NCBI GenBank assembly: GCA_016703535.1
Contig: JADJBV010000001.1
Coordinates: 6,382,270-6,446,269 of the forward strand
Source of the DNA: Deltaproteobacteria bacterium
GTDB taxonomy: Bacteria; Myxococcota; Kuafuiibacteriia; Kuafuiibacteriales; Kuafuiibacteriaceae
Direction: 5' to 3'
Length of the DNA: 64,000 nucleotides
Part shown: positions 30,218 to 32,142 of the stretch, in pieces
How positions within the stretch are numbered: the stretch's first letter is position 1
How the letters are laid out: each line of letters starts with the position of its first letter
Program-made: the position numbers and the translations under genes
Notes under the pieces: generated by a model
What the model was told of the DNA's origin: nothing
The model's input: the letters and a program-made list of their open reading frames with translations, nothing else
The model's database searches: none

Positions 30218-31222
30218 ATGGATCTCAATCCGACTCGCCCCACTTTCGACTTCATCCCGATGGGGCCGGGCGCAGGCCCCTTGACGAGTCCCTCGACTTT
30301 CGACGACTCAAGAAGCATGTACATCGAAATGGTGCGGCAGGTCGTCGAGGAGGCGGTTGCTGTTCATGCGGCCGCGGAGAAGAAGACCATCTCCGATGTT
30401 CTGAAGGAAGTTCGCGAGCACATCGACGCAACAGCGAGGGAACATCAGAAGGACGAACCGGCAATCGACTATCAGAATGCGCTGTGTCGGCTTGGCTACC
30501 TCTACCGCCACGCTCCCGCAAACGCGACGTTGTTCGAGCGCGTCCTTCGTGATTGTCCAGACTTCCTGCTCAAGATTAAAGAACGCAACGGAGCGCGGTT
30601 GCACGTGTGCTCGGTTGGCGGGGGACCTGGCACCGAACTCCTTGGGCTCTCGAAGTTCTTACTCAGGCGGCCCGAGCTTGCGCCGAGCAAGATACAGTTC
30701 ACGGTGTTGGATCGGATCCCGCAATGGGCAGAGACCTGGCAGCGCCTGGCCGATGCCGTCGAGGACCAGTTCAAAAAAGCGCCGACGGGCGCCAAGCCGA
30801 GCATTGCTCCCTCGTTCCTGCCCATGGATGTGTGCGATCCGACCTCATACAAGAGCTACGCCTATCATTTCAGCACGGTCGACATTGTGGTCTTCAACTA
30901 CTTGTTCTCGGAGAACAAGACTCGCTTGGCGGCGGCAGCGGAAGCGGCCCGCCACTTGCTCAACTCCAGCCCGGTGGGTGCTTTGTTCCTATTCATCGAT
31001 CGCCACGAAGCAGACGGACAGCTCACAGAGGCCGTGAGAGCAATGATCCCGACGACTCCTCCTTGCACGGCCAACCTGTTTGGAGGGACGATCGATCGGG
31101 ACGAAGACCGGAAGGCGATGGGCGACATGTTGATGGGAGCTTTGGGCAACCCACGAGTGAAGTTCTTCACGGACAACTACCGTGACCCAACGGCTTTTTG
31201 GACGGCGATTCGGCGCACATGA
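30218..31222 (+). CDS. Class I SAM-dependent methyltransferase-like protein (about 334 aa)
   Basis: Rossmann motif I LHVCSVGGGPGTELLGL, acidic beta2 end QFTVLDRI, motif IV DIVVFNYLF. ATG 30218 chosen (alternative 30317). Confidence 0.55.
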   Translation: MDLNPTRPTFDFIPMGPGAGPLTSPSTFDDSRSMYIEMVRQVVEEAVAVHAAAEKKTISDVLKEVREHIDATAREHQKDEPAIDYQNALCRLGYLYRHAPANATLFERVLRDCPDFLLKIKERNGARLHVCSVGGGPGTELLGLSKFLLRRPELAPSKIQFTVLDRIPQWAETWQRLADAVEDQFKKAPTGAKPSIAPSFLPMDVCDPTSYKSYAYHFSTVDIVVFNYLFSENKTRLAAAAEAARHLLNSSPVGALFLFIDRHEADGQLTEAVRAMIPTTPPCTANLFGGTIDRDEDRKAMGDMLMGALGNPRVKFFTDNYRDPTAFWTAIRRT

Positions 31223-32142
31223 TCATCTCCGCCAGCTACAAGACTGACATCCCTGCGTTCTACGGAACGTGGTTTCGAAATCGCCTTCGTGCCGGGTTTT
31301 GCAAGACCGTCAATCCGCTCAATCGCGATCAGCACTCCACGATTTCACTGAAGCGGTCTGACGTCGAAAGCTACGTCTTCTGGACGAAGGGTCAGGGACC
31401 GTTCTTGCCGGTGCTCGATGAGCTGCATGAGGCTGGCTTCCCGTTCATCGTTCAGTACACGATAAACGGCTACCCTCGGGCTCTTGAAACGCGAGTTAGC
31501 GACTCGGATCGGGCCGTCGAACAAATGCAGGTGGTCTCACGTAGGTTCGGTCCCCGAGTAGCTGTCTGGCGCTACGACACCATCGTGCTCTCGTCATTGA
31601 CCGATTTCGCATTCCATCGAAGGAACTTCGAACGGCTTGCTGAAGCTCTCTCCGGAACAACGGACGAAGTCGTCGTCTCGTTTCTTCAGCTCTACCAGAA
31701 GACGAAGCGCAATCTCGACGAAGCCGGACGCGTGGAAGCGTTTGAATGGTGGGATCCAACGGTGGAAGAGAAGAGGGACCTGCTTTCTGCCCTGGCGCAG
31801 ATCGCTGCTTCAAATCGAATGCGACTCACCATTTGCACGCAACCGGACCTTGTCGTGGCCGGTGTCGGGGAGTCTCGCTGCATTGACGGTGAGCGCCTGA
31901 TGGACTTGGCCGGTGGACGATTCCCGGCGAAGGTCAAAGGCATGCGGGAGGGCTGCGGCTGCTACGAGTCGAAGGACATCGGCGACTACGACACGTGCCC
32001 ACATGGATGTGTCTACTGCTACGCCGTTCGCGATCGAGACCTCGCGCTGAATCGGTTTAAGGCTCACGATCCGGAAGGCGAGTACCTGTTTCCCGTTCAG
32101 CCCCCGAAGCCGGCGAGGCAGCTGCGGTTGTTCGGAGAGTAG
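31219..32142 (+). CDS. DUF1848-family protein (putative Fe-S enzyme), 307 aa
   Basis: MIISASYKTDIPAFYGTWFRNRL...FWTK...WRYD matches the DUF1848 N-terminal consensus. C-terminal Cys cluster CGCYESKDIGDYDTCPHGCVYCYA. ATGA overlap with the methyltransferase stop. Confidence 0.65.
   Translation: MIISASYKTDIPAFYGTWFRNRLRAGFCKTVNPLNRDQHSTISLKRSDVESYVFWTKGQGPFLPVLDELHEAGFPFIVQYTINGYPRALETRVSDSDRAVEQMQVVSRRFGPRVAVWRYDTIVLSSLTDFAFHRRNFERLAEALSGTTDEVVVSFLQLYQKTKRNLDEAGRVEAFEWWDPTVEEKRDLLSALAQIAASNRMRLTICTQPDLVVAGVGESRCIDGERLMDLAGGRFPAKVKGMREGCGCYESKDIGDYDTCPHGCVYCYAVRDRDLALNRFKAHDPEGEYLFPVQPPKPARQLRLFGE

What the first reader, a model, noticed from the sequence alone, without database searches (positions are those of the whole stretch)
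30218..32142. Translationally coupled SAM-methyltransferase + DUF1848 (putative Fe-S) pair convergent to the defence array
The methyltransferase stop and the DUF1848 start overlap (ATGA at 31219-31222). DUF1848 has the conserved N-terminus (MIISASYKTDIPAFY..WF.NRL) and a C-terminal Cys cluster (CGCYESKDIGDYDTCPHGCVYCYA) reminiscent of radical-SAM-like Fe-S sites. Together with the ThiC-like gene, the island encodes two putative radical/Fe-S enzymes and a methyltransferase. That is a plausible small-molecule or nucleobase-modification pathway, either a signal or antiviral nucleotide, or a DNA/RNA modification providing self-protection.
Basis: partly seen in the sequence, partly recalled or inferred. 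Interest (0 to 1): 0.7.

Follow-up and report, generated by a model that had tools for sequence, protein, structure and literature searches.

The report
Mobile methyltransferase plus DUF1848 Fe-S enzyme pair
Two overlapping genes, a methyl-adding enzyme and an uncharacterised iron-sulfur enzyme (DUF1848), form a self-contained mobile unit; in other genomes the same methyl-adding enzyme is paired with the methyl-removing repair enzyme AlkB instead, which suggests DUF1848 is an oxygen-independent way of taking methyl groups off DNA or RNA.

Summary
A class-I SAM methyltransferase (annotated 30218-31222; conserved start 30317) overlaps by ATGA a full-length DUF1848 gene (31219-32142). DUF1848 carries a C-terminal CX3CXYC radical-SAM-type motif and four more family-wide cysteines.

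The proposed joint pathway with the ThiC-like gene is not supported. In 37 methyltransferase-seeded loci from at least eight bacterial phyla plus an archaeon, the partner is DUF1848 in 32, with gaps of -4 to +16 nt in the measured set. No third gene recurs, and no ThiC-like or SIR2 gene is nearby. The ThiC-like gene belongs to a separate conserved SIR2(ThsA-like)+ThiC-like pair.

The main new result concerns the partner. In 3 of the 37 loci an ABH2/3-type AlkB demethylase takes DUF1848's place, and these methyltransferases nest in two different DUF1848-linked subclades. A distant methyltransferase subfamily also pairs with AlkB on cyanobacterial plasmids. DUF1848 often occurs alone; the methyltransferase almost never does.

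Best reading (about 0.4): a mobile methyl writer/eraser module resembling DarT-DarG, with DUF1848 as an oxygen-independent functional analogue of AlkB. This is inference from gene context only. Here the pair sits in a 10.6-kb low-GC island bounded by IS91-type transposase fragments.

The parts
30317..31222 (+). Class-I SAM-dependent methyltransferase, 301 aa from the conserved start. The NCBI-annotated ORF starts at 30218 and gives 334 aa. It is distantly related to Pfam Methyltransf_34 (the Bmt6 rRNA m3U family) and, by fold, to Rsm22/METTL17.
30617..30637 (+). Methyltransferase motif I, GGGPGTE, the SAM-binding glycine loop.
   Evidence: Invariant in 112 sequences; coordinates read.
31219..31222 (+). 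ATGA overlap of the methyltransferase stop codon and the DUF1848 start codon (translational coupling).
   Evidence: The same 4-nt overlap occurs in six other loci, and all measured gaps lie between -4 and +16 nt.
31219..32142 (+). DUF1848 protein, 307 aa. Predicted (beta-alpha) barrel with C-terminal Fe-S motifs.
31834..31962 (+). Four family-wide invariant cysteines: C206 (31834-31836), C221 (31879-31881), C246 (31954-31956) and C248 (31960-31962). Putative auxiliary Fe-S (or metal) site.
   Evidence: Invariant in the pair clade and in relatives 27-36% identical. Cluster binding is inferred, not shown.
31996..32019 (+). CX3CXYC motif (C260 PHG C264 VY C267), the radical-SAM-type cluster triad. 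It follows the last beta strand and precedes the last helix.
   Evidence: sub-threshold hits of Radical_SAM, rSAM_PA0069 and rSAM_mob_pairB to this stretch only; loop 258-268 has pLDDT below 50, flanked by strand 251-253 and helix 273-282.
28889..29039 (.). Left copy of the 151-nt direct repeat that bounds the island. It lies inside the N-terminal fragment of an IS91-family transposase (minus strand, about 29637-28889).
   Evidence: (93.4% identity, E 1e-61).
39543..39692 (.). Right copy of the direct repeat. It lies at the start of the C-terminal, frameshifted fragment of the IS91-family transposase (minus strand, about 39692-38300).
   Evidence: (Y2_Tnp, E 1e-4).

Best explanation
The two genes are a self-contained, horizontally mobile operon, independent of the neighbouring ThiC-like/SIR2 genes.

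The first gene is a class-I SAM methyltransferase of a rare family. It puts a methyl group on a nucleobase, most likely on the base-pairing face of single-stranded DNA or RNA (an m1A/m3C/m3U-type mark), which is the kind of mark AlkB enzymes remove.

The second gene, DUF1848, is a (beta-alpha)-barrel Fe-S enzyme. Its radical-SAM CX3CXYC motif sits at the C-terminus instead of the N-terminus, and it has a second four-cysteine site. It acts on the methyl group written by the methyltransferase.

The most likely chemistry is as follows. A 5'-deoxyadenosyl radical abstracts a hydrogen from the N-methyl group. The auxiliary cluster takes the electron. The resulting iminium is hydrolysed and the methyl group leaves as formaldehyde. 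This would be an oxygen-independent counterpart of AlkB.

Together the two proteins would behave as a writer/eraser (toxin/antidote) module in the manner of DarT-DarG. That is the sort of cargo that stabilises plasmids and islands or aborts phage infection.

Shown by the analysis:
- the pairing of the two genes;
- their autonomy and mobility;
- the exchange of DUF1848 and AlkB as partner;
- the folds and motifs.

Inferred only:
- Fe-S cluster binding and SAM cleavage;
- the substrate;
- demethylation;
- toxicity of the methyltransferase;
- a defence or addiction role.
For: 1. Tight, conserved pairing.
- The tally of 37 methyltransferase-seeded loci is compiled and the window. The partner is DUF1848 in 32, AlkB in 3, and absent in 2.
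- In the 29-locus genome set the order is methyltransferase then DUF1848 in 25 of 26 pairs, and all measured gaps run from -4 to +16 nt.
- The two proteins co-evolve (Mantel r 0.48; 0 of 5000 permutations reach it).

2. Partner exchange.
- Nostoc pNLP4, Calothrix plasmid6 and a Pyrinomonadaceae MAG carry a clear methyltransferase homologue. The two plasmid copies match the family HMM at E 1e-52 and 1e-49.
- In each case an AlkB gene follows on the same strand, 30-197 nt downstream, where DUF1848 would otherwise be.
- These methyltransferases nest in two different DUF1848-linked subclades: 49% identity to L130 and 53% to L014, both DUF1848-linked.
- The AlkB is of the ABH3/ABH2 type (E 3e-43).

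3. A distant methyltransferase-like subfamily (HMM E 2e-12 to 2e-8) follows AlkB on Synechocystis pSYSA, Picosynechococcus and Planktothrix plasmids. In Planktothrix a DUF1848 gene is convergent about 30 nt away.

4. Asymmetry.
- Only about 10 of 50 DUF1848 loci have the methyltransferase.
- Solo DUF1848 clades sit in housekeeping synteny, as a general repair enzyme would.

5. DUF1848 features.
- CX3CXYC plus four invariant cysteines.
- A flavodoxin gene lies next to a solo copy.
- DUF1848 also accompanies a methylase-RT fusion (UG25; PMC9226505; PADLOC).

6. DUF1848 occurs in strict anaerobes and archaea: Dehalococcoidia, Methanothrix, Methanosphaera, Roseburia, Parabacteroides. AlkB cannot work there and is absent (PMC2790896, PMC8307549).

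7. Mobile context.
- The IS91-bounded island here.
- A serine recombinase or integrase next to the pair in L001, L018, L021, L043 and L044.
- R-M genes or GmrSD nearby in several loci.
Against: - There is no biochemical evidence at all.
- The AlkB-linked cases are few (3 close plus a distant subfamily) and mostly cyanobacterial.
- AlkB-family enzymes can also make stable hydroxylated products, so the partner exchange proves action on a methylated base, not erasure.
- One methyltransferase is solo, inserted between ybaB and recR (L024). In L016 the DUF1848 gene is frameshifted while the methyltransferase looks intact. Both argue against an obligately lethal toxin, although MAG sequencing errors or a distant eraser gene are possible.
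- The methyltransferase has no DNA-methyltransferase motif and no PADLOC hit.
- Most neighbours of the pair are ordinary metabolic genes.
Confidence: 0.4

Rival explanations
1. Two-step nucleic-acid hypermodification rather than erasure. The methyltransferase methylates a base in tRNA, rRNA or DNA. DUF1848 then converts the methyl group into a stable derivative, following the Trm5 then TYW1 logic, or acting like AlkB-family or TET-type hydroxylases. Alternatively DUF1848 acts first and the methyltransferase decorates its product. The benefit would be protection from restriction, from anticodon nucleases or from ribosome-targeting antibiotics.
For: - The pairing and partner-exchange data fit this reading equally well.
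- A two-cluster radical SAM layout is typical of enzymes that build on a substrate.
- The solo methyltransferase (L024) and the intact methyltransferase beside a broken DUF1848 (L016) are easier to accommodate.
Against: - The exchanged partner is an ABH2/3-type AlkB, whose characterised relatives remove methyl groups (PMC6411830).
- Solo DUF1848 in many genomes would need another source of methylated substrate.
- The patchy, mobile distribution, and the placement of methyltransferase homologues next to plasmid partition and relaxase genes and of the pair next to integrases, is unusual for RNA-modification genes.
Confidence: 0.25
2. DUF1848 is an eraser but not a radical SAM demethylase. It would be an Fe-S-containing TIM-barrel nuclease or glycosylase that excises the methylated base or nicks next to it, a base-excision route like AlkA in archaea. 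The cysteine cluster would be structural or used for DNA sensing, as in EndoIII/MutY.
For: - The fold is a generic (beta-alpha) barrel by Foldseek.
- Archaea remove m1A/m3C by a glycosylase (PMC8307549).
- A DNA/RNA endonuclease gene lies next to a solo DUF1848.
Against: - The motif is the exact CX3CX-aromatic-C spacing of radical SAM enzymes, placed in a strand-loop-helix unit.
- Seven invariant cysteines suggest two clusters.
- A flavodoxin gene is adjacent in Parabacteroides.
Confidence: 0.12
3. The pair makes or tailors a small molecule (cofactor, metabolite or natural product) and has nothing to do with nucleic acids.
For: - Neighbours are often metabolic genes.
- Both proteins are near-neutral or acidic: median pI 5.5 for the methyltransferase and 6.9 for DUF1848.
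Against: - No biosynthetic, transport or regulatory gene recurs beside the pair.
- The alternative partner is a nucleic-acid demethylase of ABH2/3 type.
- DUF1848 also partners a methylase-reverse-transcriptase fusion (PMC9226505).
- The closest methyltransferase relatives by profile and fold are RNA-directed.
Confidence: 0.1
4. One reading: the methyltransferase, DUF1848 and the ThiC-like radical SAM enzyme (with SIR2) form one pathway that makes a signal, an antiviral nucleotide or a protective modification.
For: Physical proximity inside one 10.6-kb island.
Against: - The genes lie on opposite strands, 528 bp apart.
- No ThiC-like or SIR2 gene is found in the 32 comparison loci or the two viral loci that carry the methyltransferase.
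- The ThiC-like gene overlaps the ThsA-like SIR2 gene by 25 nt and has a SIR2_2 gene directly upstream in Myxococcus, Paenibacillus and Bradyrhizobium. No methyltransferase or DUF1848 gene is present there.
Confidence: 0.03

Closest known systems
DarT-DarG toxin-antitoxin / phage-defence system
   Same: A two-gene, tightly coupled operon on mobile elements and defence islands. The proposed logic is the same: one enzyme puts a reversible chemical group on a nucleobase and an enzymatic partner removes it. Relatives of the eraser also exist alone as housekeeping repair-type enzymes.
   Different: The chemistry would be methylation rather than ADP-ribosylation. The proteins are unrelated (class-I methyltransferase and DUF1848, against an ART-fold toxin and a macrodomain). 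Toxicity and defence are untested here. At least one methyltransferase is solo.
AlkB / ALKBH2 / ALKBH3 Fe(II)/2-oxoglutarate nucleic-acid demethylases
   Same: AlkB occupies the same genomic slot next to the same methyltransferase family in at least three loci, and next to a distant subfamily in others. DUF1848 is therefore predicted to be functionally equivalent.
   Different: There is no sequence or fold similarity: AlkB is a jelly-roll dioxygenase and DUF1848 a (beta-alpha) barrel with Fe-S motifs. AlkB needs O2. DUF1848 would use SAM and reducing equivalents, and it is found in strict anaerobes and archaea, where AlkB is absent (PMC2790896, PMC8307549).
Radical SAM superfamily (e.g. spore photoproduct lyase, TYW1, BtrN/anSME-type dehydrogenases)
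   Different: The motif is at the C-terminus, not after the first strand. The Pfam and NCBIfam radical SAM models are not met. Foldseek does not single out radical SAM enzymes. No family member has been characterised.
UG25 reverse-transcriptase system (methylase-RT fusion plus DUF1848)
   Same: DUF1848 again partners a methyltransferase domain in a compact, defence-type locus (PMC9226505). The window protein hits PADLOC's RT-associated DUF1848 model at 3e-43.
   Different: No reverse transcriptase lies in the island. The stand-alone methyltransferase here has no PADLOC hit even at E up to 10, so it is probably a different methyltransferase family. The defence role of UG25 is itself unproven.
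Bmt6 (Pfam Methyltransf_34) and Rsm22/METTL17 RNA methyltransferase-like proteins
   Same: These are the only profile hit and the best structural matches for the methyltransferase, and the match includes the N-terminal helical region.
   Different: The Pfam match is marginal and partial (profile positions 9-150 of 304). The known members are eukaryotic or mitochondrial ribosome factors. No Fe-S-binding cysteines of the METTL17 type are conserved here.

Membership tests
DUF1848 (PF08902) | Full-length match to the family HMM above the gathering score. | tested here: met
   297.6 bits against 30.5, E 1.4e-88, profile positions 1-262 of 262.
Radical SAM superfamily | CX3CX(aromatic)C cluster-binding motif. 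| tested here: met
   C260-PHG-C264-V-Y-C267; the three Cys and Y266 are invariant across the family sample.
Radical SAM superfamily | Match to the Radical_SAM profile (PF04055), or to an NCBIfam rSAM model, above its cutoff. | tested here: not met
   14.7 bits against 29.5, covering only the motif. rSAM_PA0069 scores 13.3 against 360. A circularly permuted sequence scores no better.
Radical SAM superfamily | Cluster loop after the first strand of a partial or full (beta-alpha) barrel, with a structural core like solved members. | tested here: inconclusive
Radical SAM superfamily | [4Fe-4S] binding and reductive cleavage of SAM to 5'-deoxyadenosine. | not testable with these tools
   Needs anaerobic reconstitution, EPR/UV-vis spectroscopy and a 5'-dA assay.
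Class-I (Rossmann-fold) SAM-dependent methyltransferases | Seven-stranded Rossmann-like fold with a glycine-rich motif I and an acidic residue after strand 2. | tested here: met
Methyltransf_34 / Bmt6 family (PF11312) | Match above the gathering score over the family profile. | tested here: inconclusive
   29.7 bits against 26, but only profile positions 9-150 of 304. Many homologues carry the precomputed hit as 'weak' or 'faint'.
DNA methyltransferases of restriction-modification systems | (D/N/S)PP(Y/F) or C5-methyltransferase motifs, a match to R-M methyltransferase profiles, and a cognate nuclease. | tested here: not met
   No PADLOC methyltransferase hit even at E up to 10. Motif IV reads NYLFSE. 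No nuclease gene recurs beside the pair.
UG25 DRT system | A reverse transcriptase with an N-terminal methylase domain next to DUF1848. | tested here: not met
   All ORFs of at least 180 aa between the island repeats were examined. All were scanned against Pfam, and most also against PADLOC. None is an RT.
Writer/eraser toxin-antitoxin (DarTG-like) | The writer is toxic alone and is neutralised by the enzymatic activity of the partner. | not testable with these tools
   Only indirect evidence exists: the methyltransferase is almost never found without DUF1848 or AlkB (35 of 37 loci), but L024 and L016 are counter-examples.
Thoeris or other pathway shared with the ThiC-like/SIR2 genes | Conserved co-occurrence of the pair with ThiC-like or SIR2 genes. 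| tested here: not met
   None of the 32 comparison loci or the two viral loci has one. ThiC-like genes pair with SIR2 elsewhere, without the methyltransferase or DUF1848.

The most novel reading that the evidence does not exclude
DUF1848 is a new class of nucleic-acid demethylase: a circularly permuted, two-cluster radical SAM enzyme that reverses m1A/m3C-type base methylation without oxygen. That would make it the missing functional counterpart of AlkB in strict anaerobes and archaea. On mobile elements it would be teamed with a dedicated 'damage-writing' methyltransferase to form a methylation-based toxin/antidote or abortive-infection module.
Probability: 0.3. Interest if true: 0.9.

Novelty: new variant of a known kind. 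Interest (0 to 1): 0.72.

Why it matters
DUF1848 is a large family with no known function. More than 6,800 relatives were scored in one search, and it is common in gut anaerobes, methanogens and Dehalococcoidia.

AlkB-type direct reversal of m1A/m3C needs O2 and is missing from obligate anaerobes and archaea. How these organisms reverse such lesions is only partly answered, by glycosylases.

The finding that DUF1848 and AlkB replace each other beside one methyltransferase family gives a concrete hypothesis that is cheap to test: that DUF1848 is an oxygen-independent demethylase. It also points to a previously undescribed methyl writer/eraser gene pair on plasmids, integrative elements and defence islands. 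One model-organism example is AlkB plus a methyltransferase-like gene on Synechocystis PCC 6803 pSYSA.

If confirmed, this would add a new reaction to radical SAM enzymology, a new toxin-antidote principle, and possibly a tool for removing base methylation under anoxic conditions.

Tried and rejected
- Sequence searches of both proteins against PDB chains, as single sequences and as a profile, found nothing significant.
- Circular-permutation test. The C-terminal motif was moved in front of the barrel and the sequence rescanned against Pfam and NCBIfam. There was no gain over the native order, so the result is inconclusive.
- Foldseek of the DUF1848 model against PDB gave only weak, generic TIM-barrel hits. 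The afdb50 library was unavailable.
- The exact-sequence contig look-up of the window's DUF1848 protein is not on record.
- A search for a third conserved gene found none. It used all-vs-all clustering of neighbours and Pfam and PADLOC scans of 138 neighbours. The most recurrent family, a large serine recombinase, appears in 3 of 26 loci.
- tRNA, Rfam and promoter/terminator scans around the pair found no tRNA, no Rfam family and no promoter-like site. The terminator-like hits are within the number expected by chance.
- Literature searches for DUF1848, PF08902, IPR014998 and PF11312 found only the UG25 mention, one unrelated paper (not read) that contains the term DUF1848, and an EC-Pfam table. 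The UG/Abi supplement is not held, so I could not test whether the UG25 methylase domain is homologous to this methyltransferase.
- An R-M reading was considered and rejected. There are no DNA-methyltransferase motifs and no nuclease partner, and solo DUF1848 is common.
- An obligate housekeeping role for the pair was rejected because of its patchy distribution (29 of 185,579 species genomes by pattern scan) and variable context.
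Full report
**Observation.** The window is 66% G+C and comes from a 6.9-Mb contig of a 'Deltaproteobacteria bacterium' MAG. The two ORFs exist as described. 30218-31222 (+) encodes 334 aa and 31219-32142 (+) encodes 307 aa, with ATGA at 31219-31222. The second protein is a full-length DUF1848 (PF08902, E 1.4e-88). The first gives a marginal hit to Methyltransf_34 (29.7 bits against a cutoff of 26). That family contains the yeast 25S rRNA m3U2843 methyltransferase (PMC5307852). 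All 111 aligned homologues of the methyltransferase start at the residue corresponding to M34 (MYIE...). The true start is therefore probably ATG 30317, not the annotated 30218.

**The proteins.** AlphaFold models are confident: methyltransferase pLDDT 94.3, DUF1848 86.5.

- The last strand-loop-helix unit of DUF1848 carries C260-x3-C264-x-Y-C267. This loop is the only segment with pLDDT below 50.
- Across the family, including relatives only 27-36% identical, these three cysteines plus C206, C221, C246 and C248 are invariant. That suggests a radical-SAM-type cluster plus an auxiliary four-Cys site.
- Radical SAM profiles match only the motif, below threshold. A circularly permuted sequence did not score better.
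- No solved structure is related by sequence. No paper in the library assigns a function to DUF1848. The only relevant mention found is its association with the methylase-RT fusion UG25 (PMC9226505). PADLOC's RT-associated DUF1848 model hits at 3e-43, while the methyltransferase has no PADLOC hit.

**The pair is an autonomous module.** A scan of 185,579 species genomes with the methyltransferase profile gave 29 loci. They come from Myxococcota, Planctomycetota, Chloroflexota (many Dehalococcoidia), Verrucomicrobiota, Acidobacteriota, Proteobacteria, Bacteroidota and the archaeon Methanothrix.

- In 26 of the 29, DUF1848 is directly adjacent on the same strand. It lies downstream in 25. Across all measured pairs the gaps run from -4 to +16 nt, and six other loci share the 4-nt overlap.
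- Further look-ups agree, as do two IMG/VR contigs.
- Pairwise identities of the two proteins are correlated (Mantel r 0.48; 0 of 5000 permutations reach it). DUF1848 is the more conserved partner, with mean identity 56% against 37%.
- None of the window's ThiC-like, ThsA/SIR2, PDC-M19A/B, DUF488, HD-kinase or RNA-ligase proteins occurs in the 32 comparison loci searched with them, nor in the two viral loci.
- Clustering of all neighbours and Pfam/PADLOC scans of 138 neighbours found no third conserved gene. The most recurrent families are a large serine recombinase (3 of 26), then type I R-M methylase, GmrSD, NYN and DEAD helicase (2 each).
- Many neighbours are ordinary metabolic genes. In L001, L018, L021, L043 and L044 the pair sits next to a serine recombinase or tyrosine integrase, and in L043 it is followed by a type I R-M system.

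**The ThiC-like gene belongs elsewhere.** It overlaps the ThsA-like SIR2-STALD gene by 25 nt on the other strand. Its about-350-aa relatives have a SIR2_2 gene directly upstream in Myxococcus, Paenibacillus and Bradyrhizobium, with no methyltransferase or DUF1848 gene nearby. The island is therefore modular. It holds the methyltransferase-DUF1848 pair, the SIR2 plus ThiC-like pair, and PDC-M19B/A (E 1e-108 and 7e-100).

**Island structure.** The low-GC core (30.1-38 kb, 56-62% against 66-70% in the flanks) lies between 151-nt direct repeats at 28889-29039 and 39543-39692 (93.4% identity, E 1e-61). Both repeats lie in fragments of an IS91-family rolling-circle transposase. The fragments are arranged as [repeat + C-terminal part] - cargo - [N-terminal part + repeat]. 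This fits integration of a circular element or IS91-type mobilisation.

**Asymmetry.** A metagenome scan with a broad DUF1848 profile gave 80 loci at 37-66% identity.

- A methyltransferase-family gene lies at position -1 in about 10 of the 50 loci with enough upstream sequence. This includes DUF1848 proteins only 38-43% identical to the window's.
- The remaining DUF1848 genes are solo. Two solo clades sit in conserved housekeeping synteny: one between dnaK/dnaJ and grpE/hrcA, the other beside holA and gyrA.
- DUF1848 is rare on plasmids (6 records) and phages (8 records).
- Solo copies lie next to a flavodoxin and a DNA/RNA endonuclease (Parabacteroides) and after macrodomain and Sir2 genes (Roseburia).
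- DUF1848 therefore works without the methyltransferase, but the methyltransferase almost never occurs without DUF1848.

**Partner exchange with AlkB.** This is the key result.

- The only plasmid hits of the methyltransferase are Nostoc pNLP4 and Calothrix NIES-22 plasmid6. They match the family HMM at E 1e-52 and 1e-49 and keep the motifs PACRLAYLY, GAGPGTEL and NFLLSE.
- In both, AlkB follows on the same strand (gaps 30 and 197 nt) in place of DUF1848.
- One of the three 'exceptions' in the genome scan, L019 (Pyrinomonadaceae), also has AlkB 113 nt downstream. That AlkB is 64% identical to the Nostoc AlkB, E 2e-83.
- In a tree of the methyltransferases, the AlkB-linked ones nest in two different DUF1848-linked subclades. 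L019 is sister to L014 at 53% identity. Nostoc/Calothrix are sister to L130 at 49% identity, and L130 itself has DUF1848 one nucleotide downstream. This implies at least two independent partner swaps.
- The AlkB is of ABH3/ABH2 type (E 3e-43 and 6e-36 to the solved human proteins). ALKBH3 is an m1A/m3C demethylase (PMC6411830).
- A distant methyltransferase-like subfamily (HMM E 2e-12 to 2e-8; motifs LGSGPxPE and QNCLNE) follows AlkB, with gaps of 5-24 nt, on Synechocystis PCC 6803 pSYSA, a Picosynechococcus plasmid and Planktothrix p1. In Planktothrix a DUF1848 gene is convergent about 30 nt away.
- The tally of methyltransferase-seeded loci is 37: DUF1848 partner in 32, AlkB in 3, none in 2.

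**Interpretation.** Replacement of DUF1848 by a nucleic-acid demethylase beside the same methyltransferase family is best explained if DUF1848 acts on the methylated base that the methyltransferase makes.

The simplest version is erasure. The methyltransferase writes an AlkB-reversible mark, and DUF1848 removes it by radical SAM chemistry: hydrogen abstraction from the N-methyl group, electron transfer to the auxiliary cluster, then hydrolysis to formaldehyde. This is inference from known radical SAM dehydrogenase chemistry.

It fits several observations:
- the solo, housekeeping-like DUF1848 genes;
- the occurrence of DUF1848 in strict anaerobes and archaea, where the O2-dependent AlkB is absent (PMC2790896, PMC8307549);
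- the flavodoxin neighbour;
- the UG25 association with another methylase;
- the plasmid, integrase-side and defence-island locations.

The closest known logic is DarT-DarG.

**Caveats.**
- Nothing is biochemical.
- The radical SAM assignment is motif-based, with only modest structural support.
- AlkB-family enzymes can also generate stable hydroxylated products, so a two-step hypermodification remains a serious rival.
- L024 has a solo methyltransferase between ybaB and recR. L016 has a frameshifted DUF1848 beside an intact methyltransferase. Both argue against an obligately lethal writer.
- The methyltransferase family is acidic in the median (pI 5.5) and DUF1848 near neutral (6.9), so charge gives no support for nucleic-acid binding.

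**Verdict.** The link to ThiC-like/SIR2 is not. In the literature I could search, the pair is an undescribed, widely scattered mobile two-gene module. The AlkB exchange turns a DUF into a testable candidate for an oxygen-independent nucleic-acid demethylase.

Noticed in passing
window 28889-29039 and 39543-39692; transposase fragments about 28889-29637 (-) and about 38300-39743 (-): A 151-nt direct repeat (93.4% identity) bounds a 10.65-kb island. Both copies lie in fragments of an IS91-family (Y2) transposase, arranged as [repeat + C-terminal part] - cargo - [N-terminal part + repeat]. This suggests integration of a circular element or rolling-circle mobilisation. The transposase is frameshifted and probably dead.
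   Followed up: partly
window 32671-33747 (-) and 33723-35132 (-): A short ThiC-like radical SAM gene (about 350 aa) overlaps by 25 nt a ThsA-like SIR2-STALD gene (PADLOC ThsA, 5.5e-66). No TIR ThsB was found among the island ORFs scanned. The same SIR2_2 plus ThiC-like pair occurs in Myxococcus, Paenibacillus and Bradyrhizobium (3 of 3 checked). The ThiC-like protein has no PADLOC model. This may be a Thoeris-like variant with a radical SAM partner.
   Followed up: partly
window 35217-36050 (-) and 36057-37304 (-): Strong matches to the candidate defence pair PDC-M19B (1e-108) and PDC-M19A (7e-100; DUF488 C-terminal domain).
   Followed up: no
window 26668-28059 (-) and 27966-28643 (-): An HD plus AAA_33 (P-loop kinase-like) protein and an RNA ligase (PF09414), just outside the left island repeat. 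This looks like an RNA-repair cassette and has normal G+C content.
   Followed up: no
window 30218-30316: The annotated methyltransferase start (334 aa) is probably 33 codons too far upstream. All homologues begin at the MYIE... methionine (ATG 30317).
   Followed up: yes
L132 (Synechocystis PCC 6803 pSYSA, NC_005230.1, 94718-96241); L133 (Picosynechococcus PCC 7117 plasmid): AlkB is followed within 5-24 nt by an uncharacterised protein of about 290 aa that is a distant member of the methyltransferase family (HMM E 1.5e-8 and 2.2e-12). This offers a genetically tractable model for testing the writer/eraser idea.
   Followed up: partly
L063, L067, L068, L071, L072, L073, L094; L109, L111, L112, L116, L120, L121: Solo DUF1848 genes sit in conserved housekeeping synteny: on the opposite strand between dnaK/dnaJ and grpE/hrcA, or beside holA and gyrA. 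The 'NAD-GH' Pfam hit there overlaps the Hsp70 (dnaK) gene on the opposite strand and is probably an antisense shadow ORF, not a real gene.
   Followed up: partly
L024 952-1830 (Alphaproteobacteria MAG): A solo methyltransferase homologue is inserted between ybaB and recR, downstream of a dnaX 3' end. No DUF1848 or AlkB gene lies within the locus.
   Followed up: partly
L023 10921-11853 and 12354-13286 (Methanothrix MAG): Two DUF1848 paralogues (57% and 55% identical to the window protein) follow a single methyltransferase gene.
   Followed up: no
L035 (Roseburia sp. 831b plasmid) 3322-5942: A macrodomain 'protein-ADP-ribose hydrolase', a Sir2-family gene and DUF1848 are contiguous on one strand, after a 4Fe-4S protein and a nitroreductase. 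This is a second, unrelated co-location of DUF1848 with a Sir2 gene.
   Followed up: no
L012, L013, L016, L028, L040: Signs of decay in some copies: the methyltransferase is split or truncated (L012, L013, L028), DUF1848 is frameshifted (L016, L028), and a DUF1848 without a methyltransferase sits among IS fragments (L040). These could be real pseudogenes or MAG sequencing errors.
   Followed up: no
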